A stretch of DNA of 4,530 bases from a virus (lineage: Duplodnaviria; Heunggongvirae; Uroviricota; Caudoviricetes), in the IMG/VR virus record IMGVR_UViG_3300023488_000045, positions 1-4,530 of that record. One strand, written 5' to 3'. The position numbers and the translations under genes are program-made. Position 1 is the stretch's first letter, and each line of letters opens with the position of its first letter. The notes beneath the pieces were generated by a model. The model saw only the letters and a list, made by a program, of their open reading frames with translations, made no database searches and had not been told where the DNA came from. Positions 1-4,513 of this stretch are shown here, in pieces.

Positions 1-116
1 GCGTCCAGCGATGTCAGTGCAATCCGTGCAAGTTCCATTTGTTCGCCACGGGTAAGTCCGTTATCAAGCGGATTTTTAATGAATAATTCGATACGTTCTT
101 TGGTTATAGCGCTCAT
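1..116 (-). CDS. hypothetical protein, 5' portion only (gene runs off the window at position 1)
   Basis: ATG at 116..114 on the minus strand, preceded by AAGGAG (128..123) with a 6-nt spacer. Frame is open to position 1, giving MSAITKERIELFIKNPLDNGLTRGEQMELARIALTSLD... Start lies 2 nt past the TGA (120..118) of the upstream gene. Absent from the ORF track because it is truncated. No family recognised. Confidence 0.4.
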   Translation of the reverse strand, partial: MSAITKERIELFIKNPLDNGLTRGEQMELARIALTSLD

Positions 117-117
117 A

Positions 118-609
118 TCACTCTCCTTTGATGCGAATGCCAGTGGCGCGTGGCACATTAACTTCCACGATGCGCACTGTTGGTTTGTACATCTCAATCG
201 CTGTCAGCCAGTCAGCTCCTGTCATGCGCTTTTCCGCATCGCCATTAGTCCACTGAACCGGTACGCCAATAGCCTTCATCGCGATTTCTATTTCCCCGGC
301 AATGGCGCTTTTTCCGCAACCAGTAAAACCAGAAACAACGACAAGAACTTCACCTTTGGCTGGTTTTATTTCCCGTGCTTCCAGTTCTGCAATGCGCTTT
401 TTGTCTGCTTCCCGTTCATCCAGTAGTGCCAGCACGGTTTCTGGTCCGGTCAGAAATTTGAAGGCGTTGAGCGCATCAATATCCACACCGTAATCTTTAA
501 GTTCCTGTTCACTTAACAAATCATCATCAACTGGCAACATTAACAGGCGTTCCATTGCTGGAGTTGCACGTTCTGCCGCATCTCGCAGTGCCTGATAGTC
601 AATTGTCAT
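118..609 (-). CDS. phage accessory protein: N-terminal coiled-coil region (KKRIAELEAREIK) plus C-terminal Walker-A/P-loop kinase-like fragment
   Basis: ORF track 118..618 (-). Preferred start is ATG 609..607, which overlaps the upstream TGA (608..606) as ATGA and has an AAGGA Shine-Dalgarno (622..618) 8 nt upstream; ATG 618 is the alternative. Protein contains a beta-strand-like EVLVVVS followed by GFTGCGKS (GxxxxGKS) and a helix-like AIAGEIEIAMKAIG, then a WTNGD loop. Only about 75 residues follow the P-loop, too few for a complete NTPase. Confidence 0.6.
   Translation of the reverse strand: MTIDYQALRDAAERATPAMERLLMLPVDDDLLSEQELKDYGVDIDALNAFKFLTGPETVLALLDEREADKKRIAELEAREIKPAKGEVLVVVSGFTGCGKSAIAGEIEIAMKAIGVPVQWTNGDAEKRMTGADWLTAIEMYKPTVRIVEVNVPRATGIRIKGE
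380..398 (-). repeat. 19-nt exact dispersed repeat tccagttctgcaatgcgct; second copy at 1542..1560
   Basis: Identical 19-mer in gene 118..609 and in Ea22-like paralog 1. Both encode KRIAELE on the minus strand within coiled-coil segments; flanks diverge. Confidence 0.85.
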
Positions 610-1250
610 TCTCGCCATCCTTCACAGTTGTAATCACTACAGCCTTCAAAATCATATGGGCTGTACTGCCAGGTTATTTTTCCGCAATGCGGACAATTCC
701 AACGCACCTTCCCGCTTCGCGACTTCTTTCTTCTGTTCTGCTCTTTCAACCAGTCAGGCATGACCAAACCTGCGCCCTGAACCATTGTTCTGCGGTTAAA
801 GTTATTGATATTGAACGTCCGGCGCTTTGCTGCATCAGCAATGGAAAATGACAACCAAACTATTCCTGGTTCGTTTTTGTTGACGACGCTAAAGATGGTC
901 GCTTTACTGAAGTCATCTGTTGGCAATCCACCGCGTTGAAGCCAGTAAACATCGTTGCCGTTCCAGCTACCTTTTTTGTAGGCCACATACTCAGTGCAAT
1001 CTGACTCAATCAGGCTTTCTGTAGGGATGTACTGGCAATCAACGTGCCACACAGCCATTGCATCCACACTATCGGCACAAACAGGCTGATCGATATCTCG
1101 CCCACAATTCCAGGCTTTTTGGGCTTCTTCCAGCGTGTAAATATGAGCGCGATCGATATCAGAACTGTAACCATTGCCGTTATGGCAATGGAATGAGGCG
1201 TTATTACCCACAGTTTCACGCAAGCACATCATGTAAAAGCGGTTATTCAC
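606..1250 (-). CDS. hypothetical Cys/Trp/His-rich protein with C-terminal zinc-ribbon-like motif (CPHC-x14-C-x4-C)
   Basis: ORF track 606..1250 (-), 214 aa. GTG start at 1250..1248 overlaps the TGA (1249..1247) of the upstream Ea22-like gene as GTGA. Strong AAGGAGG Shine-Dalgarno (1263..1257) with a 6-nt spacer. C-terminus NCPHCGKITWQYSPYDFEGCSDYNCEGW. Its stop overlaps the downstream start as ATGA. No family recognised from memory. Confidence 0.6.
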   Translation of the reverse strand: MNNRFYMMCLRETVGNNASFHCHNGNGYSSDIDRAHIYTLEEAQKAWNCGRDIDQPVCADSVDAMAVWHVDCQYIPTESLIESDCTEYVAYKKGSWNGNDVYWLQRGGLPTDDFSKATIFSVVNKNEPGIVWLSFSIADAAKRRTFNINNFNRRTMVQGAGLVMPDWLKEQNRRKKSRSGKVRWNCPHCGKITWQYSPYDFEGCSDYNCEGWRE

Positions 1251-1909
1251 TGGTTGCCTCCTTTGCGAAGCTGTTCAGCAATACTTACGCATATCTCTGC
1301 GCCTCTAATCAGCCCCGGAACGTTCTTGTTTGGCCCAACTTCACCATCAACAAAATCAATCATCGCGTTACGAGCCATATCCACCCCCTGCGCACGTACT
1401 TCAGCCAGGAGAGCGTCGGTAGCTGGGGTTTCCGTGAAGTTGTCCTCCCAACCGTAGTACTCCTGACGACAGAAGTTATTAAATTCCTTCTCCGACTGTT
1501 TAAGCGCCGCATTCTCCGCTGCCAGCGCCGTGCGTTCGCTCTCCAGTTCTGCAATGCGCTGTTTTGCGGCATCAAGTTCAATCGATAATTTTTCCAACTG
1601 CTCTTTATGCTTCTTGTATTCCTGATATGCGTGCCAGGACTGACCTTTGCGCACACTATCAGTAATATCAGTAATCTGTTCTGGTGTTAGCGTGGTCAGT
1701 GGCTGTGCTGGGAAAATCAGCACTTTCCCGGAATCCCAATCAAAACCAGCGTGAATTGACTGAACCTCAACTGAGGGTGTTGAACCAATGCTGCCAGGCG
1801 AATGAACAACGATCGTTACATCCATATCGCGACGATGGCTGTGGTTGTTGGACAAAATACGATTCAACAAAATACGATTCACCAACTCAGAAAATTTGGA
1901 GAATTTCAT
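1247..1909 (-). CDS. Ead/Ea22-like family protein (paralog 1)
   Basis: ORF track 1247..1921 (-); the track start is a TTG, and the first ATG is at 1909..1907 with a GAGG Shine-Dalgarno 6 nt upstream. Central coiled coil AKQRIAELESERTALAAENAALKQ and the motif ETPATDALLAEVRAQGV, which I recognise as typical of lambdoid Ead/Ea22-like proteins. C-terminus AEQLRKGGNQ is homologous to paralog 2. Confidence 0.7.
   Translation of the reverse strand: MKFSKFSELVNRILLNRILSNNHSHRRDMDVTIVVHSPGSIGSTPSVEVQSIHAGFDWDSGKVLIFPAQPLTTLTPEQITDITDSVRKGQSWHAYQEYKKHKEQLEKLSIELDAAKQRIAELESERTALAAENAALKQSEKEFNNFCRQEYYGWEDNFTETPATDALLAEVRAQGVDMARNAMIDFVDGEVGPNKNVPGLIRGAEICVSIAEQLRKGGNQ
1257..1263 (-). promoter_or_regulatory. 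Shine-Dalgarno AAGGAGG for the GTG-initiated gene 606..1250, embedded in the last codons of the upstream Ea22-like gene
   Basis: AAGGAGG on the minus strand, 6-nt spacer to GTG 1250. Confidence 0.6.
1259..1280 (-). repeat. conserved junction motif at the 3' end of both Ea22-like genes (second copy 2336..2357, 20/22 identical)
   Basis: ctcctttgcgaagctgttcagc versus ctcctttgcgaatctgttccgc. On the minus strand this encodes AEQ(L/I)RKG and contains the AAAGGAG Shine-Dalgarno serving the GTG start of the downstream gene in both cases (GTGA overlap at 1250 and 2328). Confidence 0.8.
1853..1882 (-). repeat. 15-bp tandem direct repeat x2 (caaaatacgattcaa / caaaatacgattcac) inside the Ea22-like paralog 1 N-terminus
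   Basis: Read directly: 1853..1867 and 1868..1882 are identical except for the last base. In frame (5 codons each), giving NRILL-NRILS in the protein. Confidence 0.8.
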
Positions 1910-1917
1910 GCGGAGCC

Positions 1918-2328
1918 TCAATATGCAAAATAGACCGTTGCCACGCCGTTATAGTGATCAAACGATACGGCGTTTACTTCATAACTGGCCGGGAGCTTCG
2001 AGCCAAGAACGTATCCGGGCCACGTTTTCCATGGAATTTCTCTATTCTCACTACCCCCATATACCGTACATCCAAGTGAACCTACAGCTTCATTAGAACG
2101 CGTGCCGCACGTTATGAATCCCAGATTTTGCTTACTGCTCTTAATGGTGATTGAGTGAACGCTGGCTGATGCATTAGCAGCACGCTGTGCCTGTTGGTTT
2201 GCGATATTCGCAGAGTTCGCAGCAGCTACAGCAGCCGTAGTCGCGGCGGTAGAGGCTACAATAGCTGCTGAAGCATGCACTTGTTGGATATTCACCAACA
2301 ATGCCGCGACAAAAATCATCTTCTTCAC
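1918..2328 (-). CDS. predicted secreted/periplasmic protein with Sec-type signal peptide, Ala/Thr-rich linker and two-Cys C-terminal domain; function unknown
   Basis: ORF track 1918..2328 (-), 136 aa. GTG start 2328..2326 overlaps the upstream TGA (2327..2325) as GTGA; AGGAG Shine-Dalgarno 7 nt upstream; alternative ATG at 2319. N-terminus [22 protein letters not shown] has a basic n-region, hydrophobic core and AXA-like cleavage site (VHA). Mature part is a low-complexity Ala/Thr/Asn stretch followed by a roughly 80-aa domain with two Cys, ending YFAY. Confidence 0.6.
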   Translation of the reverse strand: MKKMIFVAALLVNIQQVHASAAIVASTAATTAAVAAANSANIANQQAQRAANASASVHSITIKSSKQNLGFITCGTRSNEAVGSLGCTVYGGSENREIPWKTWPGYVLGSKLPASYEVNAVSFDHYNGVATVYFAY

Positions 2329-2855
2329 TTGTCAGCTCCTTTGCGAATCTGTTCCGCCCATTCTTCAAGGGATTTCTCCGCATATTCACCGGACAGGCCA
2401 TCAATCGGGTGCGGTTCATTAGCTAACTCTTCTTTCGCTGACAGAATCATGCGTGTAACGTCGAAAACTTCACGTAAAGACTTATTGATAAATCCGTGAT
2501 TGAACGCAGCAGCAAGACGGCTGGCGGTATAGTTAATCCCCTCGTTGCGTGCTTCCGCACGAATTTCAGCAAGGAAAGCATCGGTGGCGGGAGTTTCGCT
2601 GTGGTGCAGGGCATCGTTGATAATCATTGCAGCAACACCAGCCTGCCCTGCATCCGTGACCGACACATGCTCAAGAGTTACGACCATTGCGTGTTTCAGC
2701 CCAGCATTCTCCGCCGCCAGCGCCGCGCACTTGGCCTCCGCTTCAGCAAATTTACGCACCAGATATTCAGCGTTTGTTTCGTTAACCTTTAAATCTCGTG
2801 GGATGCATTTACCTTTCAGAAATCCATCCATCTCAATTAGTGACATTTGTTTCAT
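2325..2855 (-). CDS. Ead/Ea22-like family protein (paralog 2)
   Basis: ORF track 2325..2873 (-), which begins at a GTG. Preferred start is ATG 2855..2853, overlapping the TGA (2854..2852) of the upstream small ORF as ATGA. Contains [11 protein letters not shown] and [16 protein letters not shown], and a C-terminal [10 protein letters not shown]; homologous to paralog 1 at protein and nucleotide level. Confidence 0.7.
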
Positions 2856-3016
2856 TTCTTCCCACTCCGCCACATCGCATTCAGATATTTGTTGTCATTA
2901 ACAGAACCGAAACTCTTTCTCTTAAGCAATTCCTCTCTCGATGGCATTGGCTTTACGCGTTGGCGAATAATCATTTCTGCCGGAAGAATGCCGGGATTGT
3001 ATGCAAGTCCTCTCAT
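2852..3016 (-). CDS. small basic hypothetical protein (54 aa)
   Basis: In-frame part of track ORF 2852..3166 (which begins at a TTG at 3166 and overlaps the 97-aa gene out of frame). ATG 3016..3014 is preceded by TGAGGAA with a 6-nt spacer, and that Shine-Dalgarno overlaps the TGA of the 97-aa gene. Its own stop overlaps the ATG of Ea22-like paralog 2 as ATGA. Product [54 protein letters not shown]. Alternative ATGs at 3049 and 3034 lack a Shine-Dalgarno. Confidence 0.35.
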
Positions 3017-3026
3017 GGTAAATTCC

Positions 3027-3320
3027 TCAGTCATTACTGATAGCGCCATAGCGTGAGCGGTAATTACGCAGGCGCGGGTCAATTTCAGGGAAGTGGGTAT
3101 ATGCGGCTTTGCGGAATGGTCGGATTGATGTCTGGTAAATTCGCTCGCGTTCTTCTTTCTCTGCAAGCCATATACAGTGGCGAAATTCCTTTTCCTCTTT
3201 CGTTTCCTGCGGTAGAGACATTATTCGATCGTAGTTTTTTTTGAATTTATCCAGCACCTCCGATACGGAATTGCCGGAACAGCGGCGCGCGTCATCCGCA
3301 CCATACAGAGGCGCTGGCAT
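3027..3320 (-). CDS. small phage protein (97 aa); tentatively Abc2-like anti-RecBCD protein on position and size only
   Basis: ORF track 3027..3320 (-). ATG 3320..3318 with a TAAGGA Shine-Dalgarno 7 nt upstream. Sits downstream of erf/ssb where P22-like phages carry abc1/abc2, and P22 Abc2 is about 97 aa as I remember it. I cannot verify sequence identity, so the product call is low confidence. Confidence 0.45.
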
Positions 3321-3343: not shown

Positions 3344-3727
3344 TCAGAATGGGATGGAATCGTCGTATACAGGAGTGTTCTGCTGGTTACTACTTTGCTG
3401 CTGCGGGCCATTTCCTGAAGCTGCAAATCCAATCTTTGCATTCAGTAATTCAAGAGTGATTGATTGACCATTTTGCCCCTGATAAACATCAACCCTGATG
3501 TTTTCTCCGGTAATTTCCACAATGCCACCTTCAACAAGAACACTACGGTAGTAATCCGCTTGCGCTCCCGGCTTGGCAAATACAACGGCGCTGTAGTTTG
3601 TCCATTCTTTCTTTTTTGTCTGGCGATCGTAATACTGAACGCCAGCACGGATGTTGAATCCGATATTTTCCACGGCCTGAAACTCTCTTGCGGGCTTGTT
3701 TAGTCTTACAGTAATCGAATGTGCCAT
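3344..3727 (-). CDS. ssb: single-stranded DNA-binding protein (phage SSB-like, short form)
   Basis: ORF track 3344..3727 (-), 127 aa. ATG 3727..3725 overlaps the erf TAA (3729..3727) as TAATG; AAGGAG Shine-Dalgarno lies inside the erf 3' end. OB-fold-like core (YSAVVFAKPGAQADYYRSVLVEGGIVEITGENIRVDVYQGQNGQSITLEL), Gly/Gln-rich linker, and acidic-aromatic tip YDDSIPF resembling the canonical SSB DDDIPF tail. Confidence 0.75.
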   Translation of the reverse strand: MAHSITVRLNKPAREFQAVENIGFNIRAGVQYYDRQTKKKEWTNYSAVVFAKPGAQADYYRSVLVEGGIVEITGENIRVDVYQGQNGQSITLELLNAKIGFAASGNGPQQQSSNQQNTPVYDDSIPF

Positions 3728-4332
3728 TAAGCAGCAGCTCCTTCTAATTCGTCTCGTCTGATGTTGTAAACGTCCTGCGCTTTGTGCTGCTCAGGTGTGC
3801 CTTCGAGCATCTTCCACGCTTTGGCGAACGCCTGTTTAAGCTCTTCTACGGTGTTTTTCTGCATTGCTGCGTCAGTGAATGCTTTTAGAACCTGTTCAGG
3901 TGTAGGTGATGGTTTTGATTGCTTTGCTGCTGCGTTCTGCTGATGTTTATGCTCGTCTGTATCTGCATCTTTCGCATCATCAATGCCGAACAAACCATTG
4001 AGGCAATACTTGCGTGCATAAGAGCTTGTAGCTCCCGTAACTTGTGCAGAATCCATTCCTTTCTTGCTTTCTTCCTCTCGTGCAAGAGCGGTTGCCGTAT
4101 GGCTGTTTTCGCCATCGGTAATAGTTGCCGTGGCTTTCACGTAATACCGATCACCAATCAACACAACTTCATCGCTGATTGATAAAAACAGACCATTCAG
4201 TAACGGCTTAACGCCTTCAAGAATATCTTCGCAGCTTCTGTATTTATATTTACCGAATGAGTTGTACTGATTCTTTGGCGCGTTCAGATTCTCCTGAATA
4301 GCTGCCAGTCTTGCGTAAAATTCTTTGCTCAT
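3727..4332 (-). CDS. erf: Erf-family single-strand annealing protein (essential recombination function)
   Basis: ORF track 3727..4362 (-), whose first codon is a TTG. Preferred start is ATG 4332..4330 (MSKEFYARLAAIQENLNAPKNQYNSFGKYKYRSCEDILEGVKPLL...), which I recognise as closely resembling the phage P22 Erf N-terminal domain. About 201 aa. Followed by a translationally coupled ssb. Confidence 0.85.
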   Translation of the reverse strand: MSKEFYARLAAIQENLNAPKNQYNSFGKYKYRSCEDILEGVKPLLNGLFLSISDEVVLIGDRYYVKATATITDGENSHTATALAREEESKKGMDSAQVTGATSSYARKYCLNGLFGIDDAKDADTDEHKHQQNAAAKQSKPSPTPEQVLKAFTDAAMQKNTVEELKQAFAKAWKMLEGTPEQHKAQDVYNIRRDELEGAAA

Positions 4333-4342
4333 ATGATTGTTC

Positions 4343-4513
4343 TCAGAATGGACATGGACCAAGGAAATAACGCTGATTTAATACTTCGGTCTTTGCCGCA
4401 TTTAAAAAGACGCGAACACCTTCACGATCGCCCTTCTGGCGATACATTAACGCCTGCTGCGTGTACATGCGCCTCTGTAACTTGCTCTCCTTCACTGTGG
4501 TTGCAAGTGACAT
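4343..4513 (-). CDS. small protein (56 aa) immediately upstream of erf, at the Arf/Kil position of P22-like phages
   Basis: Not in the ORF track (under 60 aa). ATG 4513..4511 preceded by a perfect AAGGAG (4525..4520) with a 6-nt spacer. Hand translation: MSLATTVKESKLQRRMYTQQALMYRQKGDREGVRVFLNAAKTEVLNQRYFLGPCPF, stop TGA at 4345..4343, 10 nt before the erf ATG. Identity with Arf or Kil not verified. Confidence 0.45.
   Translation of the reverse strand: MSLATTVKESKLQRRMYTQQALMYRQKGDREGVRVFLNAAKTEVLNQRYFLGPCPF

What the first reader, a model, noticed from the sequence alone, without database searches (positions are those of the whole stretch)
1247..2873. Two diverged Ea22-like paralogs bracket a secreted cargo gene and share a conserved 3' junction that supplies the SD and GTGA start for whatever lies downstream
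Both Ea22-like genes end with near-identical sequence (1259..1280 and 2336..2357, 20/22 nt) encoding AEQ(L/I)RKG. In both cases that sequence contains AAAGGAG and is followed by a GTG start overlapping the Ea22 stop (GTGA), yet the downstream genes are unrelated: a Zn-ribbon protein at 606..1250 and a signal-peptide protein at 1918..2328. The paralogs also share internal nucleotide blocks (about 1511..1530 vs 2707..2726, and the ETPATDA-encoding regions near 1413..1440 and 2579..2606). This looks like a built-in docking architecture, where the Ea22 3' end acts as a portable expression adaptor and homology arm for exchanging accessory cargo. That would be a cassette-like hotspot rather than random mosaicism.
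Basis: partly seen in the sequence, partly recalled or inferred. Interest (0 to 1): 0.6.

Follow-up and report, generated by a model that had tools for sequence, protein, structure and literature searches.

The report
Shared gene joint for phage shuffling
A roughly 30-base stretch at the end of certain early phage genes, holding the ribosome-binding site and start codon of the next gene, recurs almost unchanged in hundreds of E. coli and Salmonella phages and marks the exact point where neighbouring genes are swapped, a clear example of an old and disputed idea about how phage genomes become mosaics.

Summary
The full joints, 1247-1279 and 2325-2357, match at 27/33. On the gene (minus) strand each reads ..GAACAG[C/A]TTCGCAAAGGAG + 7 nt + GTGA: the tail of one gene, a Shine-Dalgarno site, and an overlapping stop and start.

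Comparative data support the main prediction. In evenly spaced samples of E. coli complete genomes, 30 of 32 alignments reaching joint B and 34 of 37 reaching joint A stop inside the joint. In about 166 phage records the joint is an isolated island of about 33 bases of homology. At least 14 unrelated upstream 3' ends and 10 or more unrelated downstream genes combine across it.

Four corrections:
- The core GGAGGCAACCAGTGA is not specific to Ea22. It also ends DUF2737 and other genes, and is read in two frames.
- A third, more promiscuous joint lies at 114-141 and is lambda Ea22's own 3' end (..GIRIKGE*).
- The two genes are EaE/Ea22 mosaics that share only short blocks.
- The signal-peptide gene keeps fairly constant neighbours.

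Best explanation: a translationally coupled gene joint that also serves as a short homology arm. It is a new member of the known "boundary sequence" kind. The mechanism is inferred, not shown.

The parts
1247..1279 (-). Joint A (type 1). It holds the last 10 codons of gene b (AEQLRKGGNQ*), the SD AAGGAGG, the 7-nt spacer GCAACCA, and a GTG start of the Zn-ribbon gene overlapping the TGA stop (GTGA at 1250..1247).
   Evidence: Read from the sequence. In the E. coli sample, alignments end at 1261-1267 or start at 1244-1247 in 34 of 37 cases. It forms a 33-nt island of homology in about 166 phage records.
2325..2357 (-). Joint B (type 1 variant). It holds the last 10 codons of gene c ([10 protein letters not shown]), the SD AAGGAG, the spacer CTGACAA, and a GTG start of the signal-peptide gene overlapping the TGA stop.
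   Evidence: In the E. coli sample 29 alignments start at 2314-2337 and 1 ends at 2342; only 2 cross. Phage matches start at 2336 (H2 and H3).
114..141 (-). Joint C (type 2), GGCATTCGCATCAAAGGAGAGTGATATG. It holds the tail ..GIRIKGE* of the Ead_Ea22 gene, the SD, the stop, and the ATG of the next gene (starting at 116 and running off the window).
   Evidence: It is the top hit of an unbiased search for 14-mers with diverse flanks on both sides. In related loci it has 10 or more unrelated CTDs upstream and 15 or more unrelated genes downstream. Lambda Ea22 (PDB 8DSX) ends ..DAGIRIKGE. A 61-nt query around it hits 320 phage records, including lambda, HK620 hkaG/hkaF and P27.
2325..2855 (-). Gene c, an EaE/Ea22-type mosaic protein of 176 aa. 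Its ATG at 2855 overlaps the DUF2737 stop as ATGA. It runs: N-terminal module [12 protein letters not shown].., coiled-coil AAENAGLK block, [11 protein letters not shown] block, CTD, tail.
   Evidence: It matches phrog_614, 368 and 492 and has no Pfam hit. The same N-terminus, [10 protein letters not shown] block and tail occur in the annotated EaE protein of P22-like phage SE1. RefSeq calls homologous segments ead/Ea22-like, Eae or HNH endonuclease.
1918..2328 (-). Downstream gene 1, a 136-aa protein with a putative Sec signal peptide and two Cys residues (phrog_8805, function unknown).
   Evidence: Its neighbourhood is rather constant across 49 related loci.
1247..1909 (-). Gene b, a 220-aa mosaic counted from the ATG at 1909. 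It joins a phrog_6026-type N-terminal domain (MKFSKF..), a coiled coil, the ETPATDALLAE block, a short CTD and the tail.
   Evidence: In the E. coli sample, endpoints fall at 1507-1533 (coiled-coil block) and at 1432 (ETPATDA block).
606..1250 (-). Downstream gene 2, a 214-aa Zn-ribbon protein (phrog_2457, function unknown). Its stop overlaps the next gene's ATG as ATGA (609..606).
118..618 (-). Gene a, an Ead_Ea22 family protein. The likely start is the ATG at 609 (MTIDYQALRDAAE..). The CTD carries a P-loop-like GFTGCGKS motif, and the protein ends in the type-2 tail.
   Evidence: Pfam PF13935 scores 67.9 bits against a cutoff of 27. Weak kinase-type P-loop hits appear. It matches phrog_250.
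2692..2749 (-). Coiled-coil block (..[10 protein letters not shown]..) shared with 1497-1554. It is an internal mosaic breakpoint.
   Evidence: family D3, shows 78% over 58 nt. One search shows a 22-nt core at 95%. Phage and E. coli alignments start at 2692-2768. CTGGCGGCGGAGAATGC is among the most promiscuous k-mers.
2577..2597 (-). ETPATDA(F/L)LAE block shared with about 1412-1432. It is a second internal breakpoint.
   Evidence: One search gives BLASTP E=2e-6. E. coli alignments end at 2588-2598 and at 1432. CCGATGCTTTCCTGGCTGAA is a promiscuous k-mer.

Best explanation
The repeated 3' end is a conserved gene joint in the early-left accessory ("ea" / exo-xis) region of lambdoid, P22-like and P1-like phages. 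In about 15-33 nt it packs three things: the last codons of the upstream gene, which become a generic tail (..(A)xQ(L/I)RKG+3 aa here, ..GIRIKGE in the lambda ea22 type); a strong Shine-Dalgarno site (AAGGAGG); and the start codon of the next gene, overlapping the upstream stop (GTGA).

The joint is nearly identical in many otherwise unrelated contexts. It therefore provides a short patch of homology where phage recombinases can cross over (inferred; the window itself encodes an ERF-family annealing protein, an SSB-like protein and Abc2 just upstream). The second arm is another copy of the joint, the conserved first ~35 nt of an Ea22-type gene (..ATTGACTATCAGGCACTGCGTGAGGCGGCAGA), or an internal coiled-coil or ETPATDA block.

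Any gene recombined in behind the joint inherits a ready-made initiation region. It would then be translated by coupling within the long early transcript (inferred).

Shown: the sequence anatomy, the independent assortment of the two flanks, and the clustering of homology endpoints.
Inferred: that exchange is driven by homology at the joint, and that the joint drives translation.
For: Anatomy.

Independent assortment of flanks:
- 120 or more viral contigs carry the exact 19-mer. The downstream gene starts at stop-1 in nearly all, with 4 CTD families, 15 downstream clusters and 24 combinations.
- Across the core there are 155 unique contexts, 14 upstream and 10 downstream families, and 33 combinations. 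All four pairings of several upstream and downstream families are present.

Sampling not based on the motif:
- 80 loci found through the Zn-ribbon protein have 10 or more unrelated upstream sequences, yet all share (A)AGGAGGCA[N]CCAGTGA.
- In E. coli complete genomes, 34 of 37 alignments reaching joint A and 30 of 32 reaching joint B end inside the joint.
- In about 166 phage records the match is confined to about window 1247-1279.
- Of 347 distinct 16-nt initiation regions in the related loci, 329 serve a single gene family. Only these joints serve 3-6 families.
- The most promiscuous 14-mers in the region are joint C, the coiled-coil block and joint A.

Not a peptide effect: the core is read as ..EATSE* by a different upstream gene, and it also sits after short non-coding frames.

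Cassette geometry: single-gene inserts (Zn-ribbon, MSGKRMT, MTVCLID, a methyltransferase-like gene) sit between the joint and an Ea22 N-terminal block. The core recurs 2-3 times per locus, 0.6-3.4 kb apart.

Pool-specific homogeneity: Klebsiella relatives have their own shared joint, AAGCAGCTGCGCGAGGGGGCCGACAAATGA, behind two different genes. More distant genera lack the motif.

Plausibility of the enzymology: Rad52-like phage recombinases, including Erf, recombine short and diverged homologies far better than RecA (PMC3945230). ERF and Abc2 domains are encoded at 3727-4362 and 3027-3320.

No promoter-like or terminator-like site lies between the genes on the gene strand.
Against: - No experiment here shows crossing-over at the joint or initiation at the GTG.
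- Endpoint clustering at gene boundaries is also what selection on random joints would give.
- 15-33 nt is at the low end of what annealing proteins use efficiently.
- The signal-peptide gene keeps largely the same neighbours, so not every gene behind a joint is mobile.
- The tail peptide is partly conserved across genera while its nucleotides diverge: QLREGADK* in Klebsiella and FAASLRGEQ.. in Yersinia. Some protein-level constraint may therefore contribute.
- The motif-seeded sample is biased by design.
- The viral contig collection is dominated by E. coli prophages, so counts are not independent events.
Confidence: 0.7

Rival explanations
1. Illegitimate (homology-independent) recombination creates random joints, and selection keeps only those at gene boundaries. 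The similarity of the joints would then reflect convergent demands of a strong SD, optimal spacing and stop/start overlap, not a role in recombination.
For: Breakpoints at gene boundaries are expected under this model. Distant relatives of the Zn-ribbon gene use other initiation regions with the same overlap logic but a different sequence, for example VKGGEA* with ATGA in Atlantibacter and YRKDGAI* with TTGA in Acinetobacter. PMC3029335 notes that boundary sequences cannot be found at most mosaic joints.
Against: Convergence does not explain identity of the functionally neutral 7-nt spacer GCAACCA, nor of the codons upstream of the SD, across 10 or more unrelated gene pairs. It also does not explain why 329 of 347 other initiation regions in the same loci are private to one gene family. 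Partners on the left and on the right overlap by a shared 15-21 nt, which random joining would not produce.
Confidence: 0.15
2. The conserved element is mainly a functional C-terminal peptide (..QLRKGGNQ or ..GIRIKGE) needed by EaE/Ea22-type proteins, for example for oligomerisation, partner binding or turnover. Nucleotide conservation would be a by-product.
For: About 72% of 88 Ea22 genes sampled by N-terminus end in one of the two tails, and most of the rest end in variants. Tail-like peptides persist in Klebsiella and Yersinia with different codons. Synonymous variants exist: GAG for GAA, CGT for CGC, ATC for ATT.
Against: The core is equally conserved after DUF2737 and other unrelated genes. 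In L121 it is translated in another frame, and elsewhere it follows only 5-15 in-frame codons. Unrelated CTD folds all carry the same tail, which suggests an appended linker and not part of a fold. This rival could hold in addition to the best explanation but cannot replace it.
Confidence: 0.1
3. The downstream genes are self-mobile cassettes moved by a site-specific recombinase or a homing nuclease that recognises the joint, in the manner of an integron or of intronless homing.
For: The Zn-ribbon gene sits at exactly the same position relative to the Ea22 N-terminus in 79 of 80 loci, behind many different genes. Some relatives of gene c carry HNH endonuclease CTDs.
Confidence: 0.03
4. The joint is a structured RNA or a binding site for a regulator, such as a translational operator or an sRNA target.
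For: Nucleotide-level conservation extends beyond the SD.
Against: No Rfam family matches. None of the three joints folds better than shuffled sequence.
Confidence: 0.02

Closest known systems
Short conserved "boundary" or "linker" sequences of lambdoid phages. This is the modular theory of Susskind and Botstein (1978) and the seven boundary sequences reported for HK620 by Clark et al. (J Mol Biol 2001). I recall both from memory. They are cited in PMC3029335, but the 2001 paper is not held.
   Same: A short conserved sequence at module borders in the non-structural half of lambdoid genomes, flanked by independently assorting sequences, and proposed as a focus of homologous recombination. The HK620 hkaG/hkaF border carries the type-2 joint.
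   Different: Here the element is also the tail of one gene and the initiation region of the next. It recurs several times per genome, also lies inside genes as block borders, and is shared with P1/P7-like phage-plasmids. I could not check whether it is one of Clark's seven. The HK620 record annotates no such feature.
The lambda ea22 gene and its mosaic Stx-phage variants (PMC10834534; PDB 8DSX)
   Same: [quoted passage not shown] Lambda Ea22 ends ..DAGIRIKGE, which is the tail of joint C in the window.
   Different: In the passages I read (term searches, not the whole paper), that work does not describe the conserved 3' joint or its role as a breakpoint and initiation region. Genes b and c of the window do not reach the Pfam Ead_Ea22 model.
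The eaE/eaA gene border of P22-like phages (Salmonella phage SE1, MK972687)
   Same: SE1 EaE has the same N-terminal 36 aa as gene c, the [10 protein letters not shown] block and the tail AFAAELRKGGNQ*. It is followed by GTGAGCAAGATTGATTATCAA, the start of EaA, which has an Ea22-type N-terminus. It lies at the same place in the genome, directly after DUF2737.
   Different: The CTD core differs. In the window, a signal-peptide gene and a Zn-ribbon gene occupy the positions behind the joints.
PeSL regulatory cassettes of T4-type phages (PMC2839356, PMC4122927)
   Same: These are repeated short regulatory motifs in hyperplastic regions. Recombination between them shuffles, deletes and inserts accessory ORFs. 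The repeat also supplies expression signals to whatever follows it.
   Different: PeSLs are intergenic units of a promoter plus a terminator stem-loop and act on transcription. The present joints have no promoter, terminator or structure. They lie inside coding sequence and act, if at all, on translation.
Translational coupling through overlapping stop/start codons (ATGA or GTGA) in phage operons. This rests on general knowledge.
   Same: The SD lies inside the end of the upstream ORF, and the start overlaps the stop. The whole chain of genes in the window and its relatives is linked this way.
   Different: Ordinary coupled junctions are private to one gene pair (329 of 347). These are shared by many unrelated pairs.

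Membership tests
Ead/Ea22-like protein family (Pfam PF13935) | Match to the Pfam model above its gathering score | tested here: not met
   Genes b (1247-1909) and c (2325-2855) have no PF13935 hit at E<=0.01. Gene a (118-618) scores 67.9 bits against a cutoff of 27.
Ead/Ea22-like protein family (Pfam PF13935) | Central coiled coil followed by a variable C-terminal domain, as described for lambda Ea22 and its Stx variants | tested here: met
   Both genes carry the AAENAxLK coiled-coil block followed by unrelated CTDs. They share phrog_368, 492 and 614 with Ea22-type proteins. RefSeq names homologous segments ead/Ea22-like.
P22 EaE family | Sequence similarity to an annotated EaE protein over the N-terminus, the [10 protein letters not shown] block and the tail, at the position after DUF2737 | tested here: met
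   Met for gene c: SE1 EaE begins [36 protein letters not shown], carries [14 protein letters not shown] and ends AELRKGGNQ*. Gene b shares only the blocks and the tail.
Lambdoid boundary / linker sequences | Short conserved sequence at a module border, with unrelated sequence on both sides in different genomes | tested here: met
   Alignments are confined to about 33 nt in most of about 166 phage records. There are 14 upstream and 10 downstream families.
Lambdoid boundary / linker sequences | Homology endpoints (mosaic breakpoints) coincide with the sequence in samples not chosen by it | tested here: met
   34 of 37 alignments at joint A and 30 of 32 at joint B end inside the joint, in evenly spaced rows of E. 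coli complete genomes.
Lambdoid boundary / linker sequences | Recombination actually occurs at the sequence | not testable with these tools
   This needs phage crosses. Only the pattern left behind can be seen here.
Translationally coupled gene pair | SD within the upstream ORF at a suitable distance, and a start codon overlapping or abutting the stop | tested here: met
   AAGGAG(G) lies 7 nt before a GTG that overlaps TGA at both joints. The downstream ORF starts at stop-1 in about 120 related loci. That coupling functions was not testable.
Morons (autonomous promoter-gene-terminator inserts) | Own promoter and terminator flanking the inserted gene | tested here: not met
   No promoter-like or terminator-like site lies on the gene strand within 100-3300. 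The genes overlap their neighbours by 4 nt.
Integron-type gene cassettes | An attC-like imperfect inverted repeat at cassette borders | tested here: not met
   The joints fold no better than shuffled sequence, and no inverted repeat is visible in the 33 nt.
Homing-endonuclease-driven mobile genes | A nuclease domain in the mobile ORF | tested here: not met
Polymorphic-toxin style CT/immunity cassettes | The variable C-terminal domain co-varies with the gene immediately downstream | tested here: not met
   CTD families pair with many downstream families and vice versa (cross-tables).

The most novel reading that the evidence does not exclude
The joints are not merely tolerated leftovers. They are maintained as "recombineering arms". 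Together with the adjacent erf/ssb/abc2 module, they would make the ea/exo-xis region an integrase-free cassette array. In it, accessory genes and the effector-like C-terminal domains of EaE/Ea22 scaffold proteins are exchanged among lambdoid, P22-like and P1-like phages by short-homology annealing, and each newcomer is expressed at once through the shared initiation region.
Probability: 0.2. Interest if true: 0.7.

Novelty: new member of a known kind. Interest (0 to 1): 0.45.

Why it matters
How phage genomes become mosaic has been argued for decades. [quoted passage not shown] The other holds that joints form at random and selection sorts them. The usual objection to the first view is that linkers cannot be found at most borders (PMC3029335).

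These joints are a concrete and abundant case, present in lambda, HK620, P22-like, Stx-converting and P1/P7-like phages. The linker can be seen, its two flanks assort independently, and it has a second job as the initiation region of the next gene.

That makes the question testable with simple crosses and recoded joints. It also gives a practical handle for finding accessory-gene slots in prophages, including Shiga-toxin phages: look behind the joint. Finally, it explains why EaE/Ea22-type proteins with unrelated C-terminal domains share the same last few residues.

Tried and rejected
- Motif-seeded sampling of viral contigs gave striking numbers but is circular for conservation. I therefore re-sampled through the downstream proteins, through the Ea22 N-terminal motif, through k-mers without any prior, and through E. 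coli complete genomes.
- The one genome-contig scan, with the CTD of gene c, returned only 4 loci and was of no use for cross-species codon comparison. I used the look-up of encoding contigs on Zn-ribbon homologues instead.
- The exact products of gene b (220 aa and 224 aa versions) are not on record, so the source of the window was not identified. No E. coli complete genome or phage record covers more than 65% of the window.
- The Clark et al. 2001 paper is not held, and the HK620 record carries no boundary-sequence annotation. Searching the literature for the motif strings found nothing. PMC9836094, on co-transfer in lambdoid phages, does not mention this region.
- Structured RNA or a known RNA family: rejected.
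- Moron architecture: rejected.
- Defence-system membership: no convincing PADLOC hit.
- Homing nuclease idea for the Zn-ribbon protein: no support. The afdb50 fold library was unavailable.

Full report
**What is in the window.** All genes lie on the minus strand and form part of the early-left operon of a P22-like or lambdoid prophage. In transcription order they are:
- an ERF-family annealing protein (3727-4362)
- an SSB-like protein (3344-3727)
- Abc2 anti-RecBCD (3027-3320)
- a DUF2737 protein (stop at 2852)
- gene c (2325-2855)
- a 136-aa protein with an apparent signal peptide (1918-2328)
- gene b (1247-1909)
- a 214-aa Zn-ribbon protein (606-1250)
- an Ead_Ea22 protein, gene a (118-609/618)
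- the start of a further gene at 116

Most consecutive genes overlap by ATGA or GTGA. No promoter-like or terminator-like site lies on the gene strand in the finding's region. HK620 and the P22-like phage SE1 have the same layout: abc2, DUF2737, Ea-type genes, then xis and int.

**Checking the observation.**
- 1258-1279 and 2336-2357 match at 20/22.
- The 19-mer with one free position occurs twice, against none in 200 shuffles.
- The pair extends to 37 nt at 81% identity.
- The 33-nt joints read GCTGAACAGCTTCGCAAAGGAGGCAACCAGTGA and GCGGAACAGATTCGCAAAGGAGCTGACAAGTGA on the gene strand.
- Each is a tail (AEQLRKGGNQ* or [10 protein letters not shown]), the SD AAGGAG, 7 nt, and a GTG overlapping TGA.
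- The two downstream genes are unrelated.

The label "two diverged Ea22-like paralogs" needs softening. Neither gene reaches Pfam Ead_Ea22. They align only over the coiled-coil block, the ETPATDA block and the tail. Gene c is best described as an EaE-type mosaic: SE1 EaE shares its first 36 residues, the [10 protein letters not shown] block and the tail.

- In nearly all of them the next ORF starts at stop-1.
- The upstream genes fall into four unrelated C-terminal domain families.
- The downstream genes fall into 15 clusters, 13 of which are unrelated to one another. The commonest is another Ea22-type gene beginning MSKIDYQ...

That sample was chosen by the motif, so I re-sampled in four independent ways.

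1. *By the Zn-ribbon protein (80 loci).* The 45 nt upstream belong to at least ten unrelated genes, including DUF2737 ending ..MWRKGGSQ*. All share (A)AGGAGGCA[N]CCAGTGA.
2. *By k-mers, with no prior.* In 129 loci found through the two cargo proteins, I looked for 14-mers with diverse flanks on both sides. The top hit was GGCATTCGCATCAAAGGAGAGTG. The coiled-coil block came next, then TTCGCAAAGGAGGCAACCAGTGA.
3. *By the Ea22 N-terminal motif.* This gave 88 distinct genes. Of these, 38 end ..RIKGx*, 25 end ..RKGxxx*, and most others end in variants. Among 83 gene/neighbour pairs there were 26 downstream families and 17 CTD families.
4. *By E. coli complete genomes, 60 evenly spaced rows per query.*
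   - At joint A, 20 alignments end at window 1261-1267, 14 begin at 1244-1247, and 3 cross.
   - At joint B, 29 begin at 2314-2337, 1 ends at 2342, and 2 cross.
   - The remaining endpoints pile up at the coiled-coil and ETPATDA blocks.

A 61-nt query centred on joint A finds 166 phage records, most with the alignment confined to window 1247-1279. As a control, 329 of 347 distinct 16-nt initiation regions in the same loci serve a single gene family. Only these joints serve three to six.

**A third joint.** The k-mer winner is in the window at 114-141. It is the 3' end of gene a (..GIRIKGE*), with the next ATG 4 nt after the stop.
- In related loci it has at least ten unrelated CTDs upstream and at least fifteen unrelated genes downstream.
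- Lambda Ea22 itself ends ..DAGIRIKGE (PDB 8DSX).
- A 61-nt query around it hits 320 phage records, including lambda, HK620 (hkaG/hkaF) and P27.

The finding is therefore one instance of a family trait. EaE/Ea22-type genes with unrelated C-terminal domains end in one of two related joints, which share ATTCGC..AAAGGAG.

**Is it only a shared peptide?** No, at least for the core.
- In locus L121 the same GGAGGCAACCAGTGA is read as ..EATSE* by a different upstream gene.
- The previous border in that locus has GGGGGCAACCAGTGAGTGA, read as ..GATSE*.
- In other contexts only 5-15 in-frame codons precede it.

The part upstream of the SD behaves more like a peptide under some constraint. It shows synonymous variants. 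Klebsiella relatives carry ..KQLREGADK*, encoded by AAGCAGCTGCGCGAGGGGGCCGACAAATGA, behind two different genes. Yersinia has ..FAASLRGEQNAK*.

More distant relatives (Acinetobacter, Pantoea, Moellerella, Atlantibacter) use other initiation regions. The exact sequence is thus not required for expression of the Zn-ribbon gene. Its uniformity is specific to one gene pool, as expected if it spreads and is homogenised by recombination.

**Cassette geometry.**
- The Zn-ribbon gene is followed in 79 of 80 loci by ATGACAATTGACTATCAGG.., the conserved start of an Ea22-type gene. After that the sequences diverge into at least eight types.
- When no cargo is present, the joint runs straight into GTGAGCAAGATTGACTATCAGG.
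- Several other single-gene cargos are bracketed in the same way.
- The core recurs two or three times per locus.

This fits two short homology arms. The signal-peptide gene is different. It mostly keeps the same upstream allele and its own spacer, and it is usually followed by the MKFSKF gene. It looks like part of a larger, more stable block.

**Mechanism.** What is shown is the anatomy, the independent assortment of flanks and the endpoint clustering.

What is inferred is that phage annealing proteins cross over in the joint, and that the joint provides translational coupling. The first inference is plausible: Rad52-like recombinases, including an Erf, recombine short and diverged homologies much better than RecA (PMC3945230), and the window encodes ERF, SSB-like and Abc2 functions.

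The main rival is random joining plus selection. It does not explain the identical neutral spacer, or the 15-21 nt shared by left-hand and right-hand partners. Other rivals fared as follows:
- A functional tail peptide may contribute but cannot explain the core.
- Structured RNA, moron, integron and homing-nuclease readings were tested and found no support.
- The Zn-ribbon protein models confidently (pLDDT 93.3) but matches no solved fold.

**Comparison with what is known.**
- The idea of short conserved boundary sequences in lambdoid phages is old (Susskind and Botstein; Clark et al. 2001 for HK620; cited in PMC3029335).
- The mosaic nature of ea22 genes is published (PMC10834534).
- T4-type phages have an analogous system of repeated regulatory cassettes (PMC2839356).

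I found no description of these particular joints in the held literature. I could not read Clark et al. 2001, so prior description cannot be excluded.

I rate it a new member of a known kind. It is of moderate interest because it is unusually clean, widespread and directly testable.

Noticed in passing
window 114-141: A third conserved joint, GGCATTCGCATCAAAGGAGAGTGATATG, lies at the end of the Ead_Ea22 gene. It is identical in type to the 3' end of lambda ea22 (tail ..GIRIKGE*). It is the most promiscuous 14-mer family in 129 related loci.
   Followed up: yes
window 1852-1881: An exact 15-nt tandem duplication (ACAAAATACGATTCA x2) lies inside gene b. It gives NRILLNRIL where most relatives have NRIL. 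It is in frame and is also seen in a few related loci (L203, L209).
   Followed up: partly
window 118-400 (gene a, C-terminal half): The C-terminal domain of the Ead_Ea22 protein carries a Walker-A-like GFTGCGKS motif. It gives weak hits to small P-loop kinases such as adenylyl-sulfate kinase (E about 0.01-0.1, far below the cutoffs).
   Followed up: no
   Followed up: partly
L269 (NZ_CP149562.1 plasmid); More than half of the E. coli matches to window 700-1900 (448 of 779 places) lie on plasmids. Many of the listed plasmid records are about 90-110 kb, and the one I inspected carries phd/doc and humD, like P1. P1 and P7 records also carry joint A. The same modules are therefore shared between lambdoid prophages and P1-like phage-plasmids.
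   Followed up: partly
window 2695-2860; one search hits H144, H155, H159, H163, H169: The N-terminal module of gene c is joined in other E. coli prophages to genes annotated as HNH endonuclease, YfdS family or DUF968. This suggests a common scaffold with swappable effector-like C-terminal domains.
   Followed up: no
related loci L121-L249: A palindromic 14-mer, TCCGGTAACTCCGG, is among the k-mers with many different left flanks (12) but few right flanks (4). Its nature is unknown.
   Followed up: no
window 2852-2855: The ATG of gene c overlaps the DUF2737 stop as ATGA.
   Followed up: yes
whole window: No E. coli complete genome and no phage record covers more than 65% of the 4.5-kb window, although every piece has matches at 95-99% identity. 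This particular combination of modules is rare or unsampled.
   Followed up: partly
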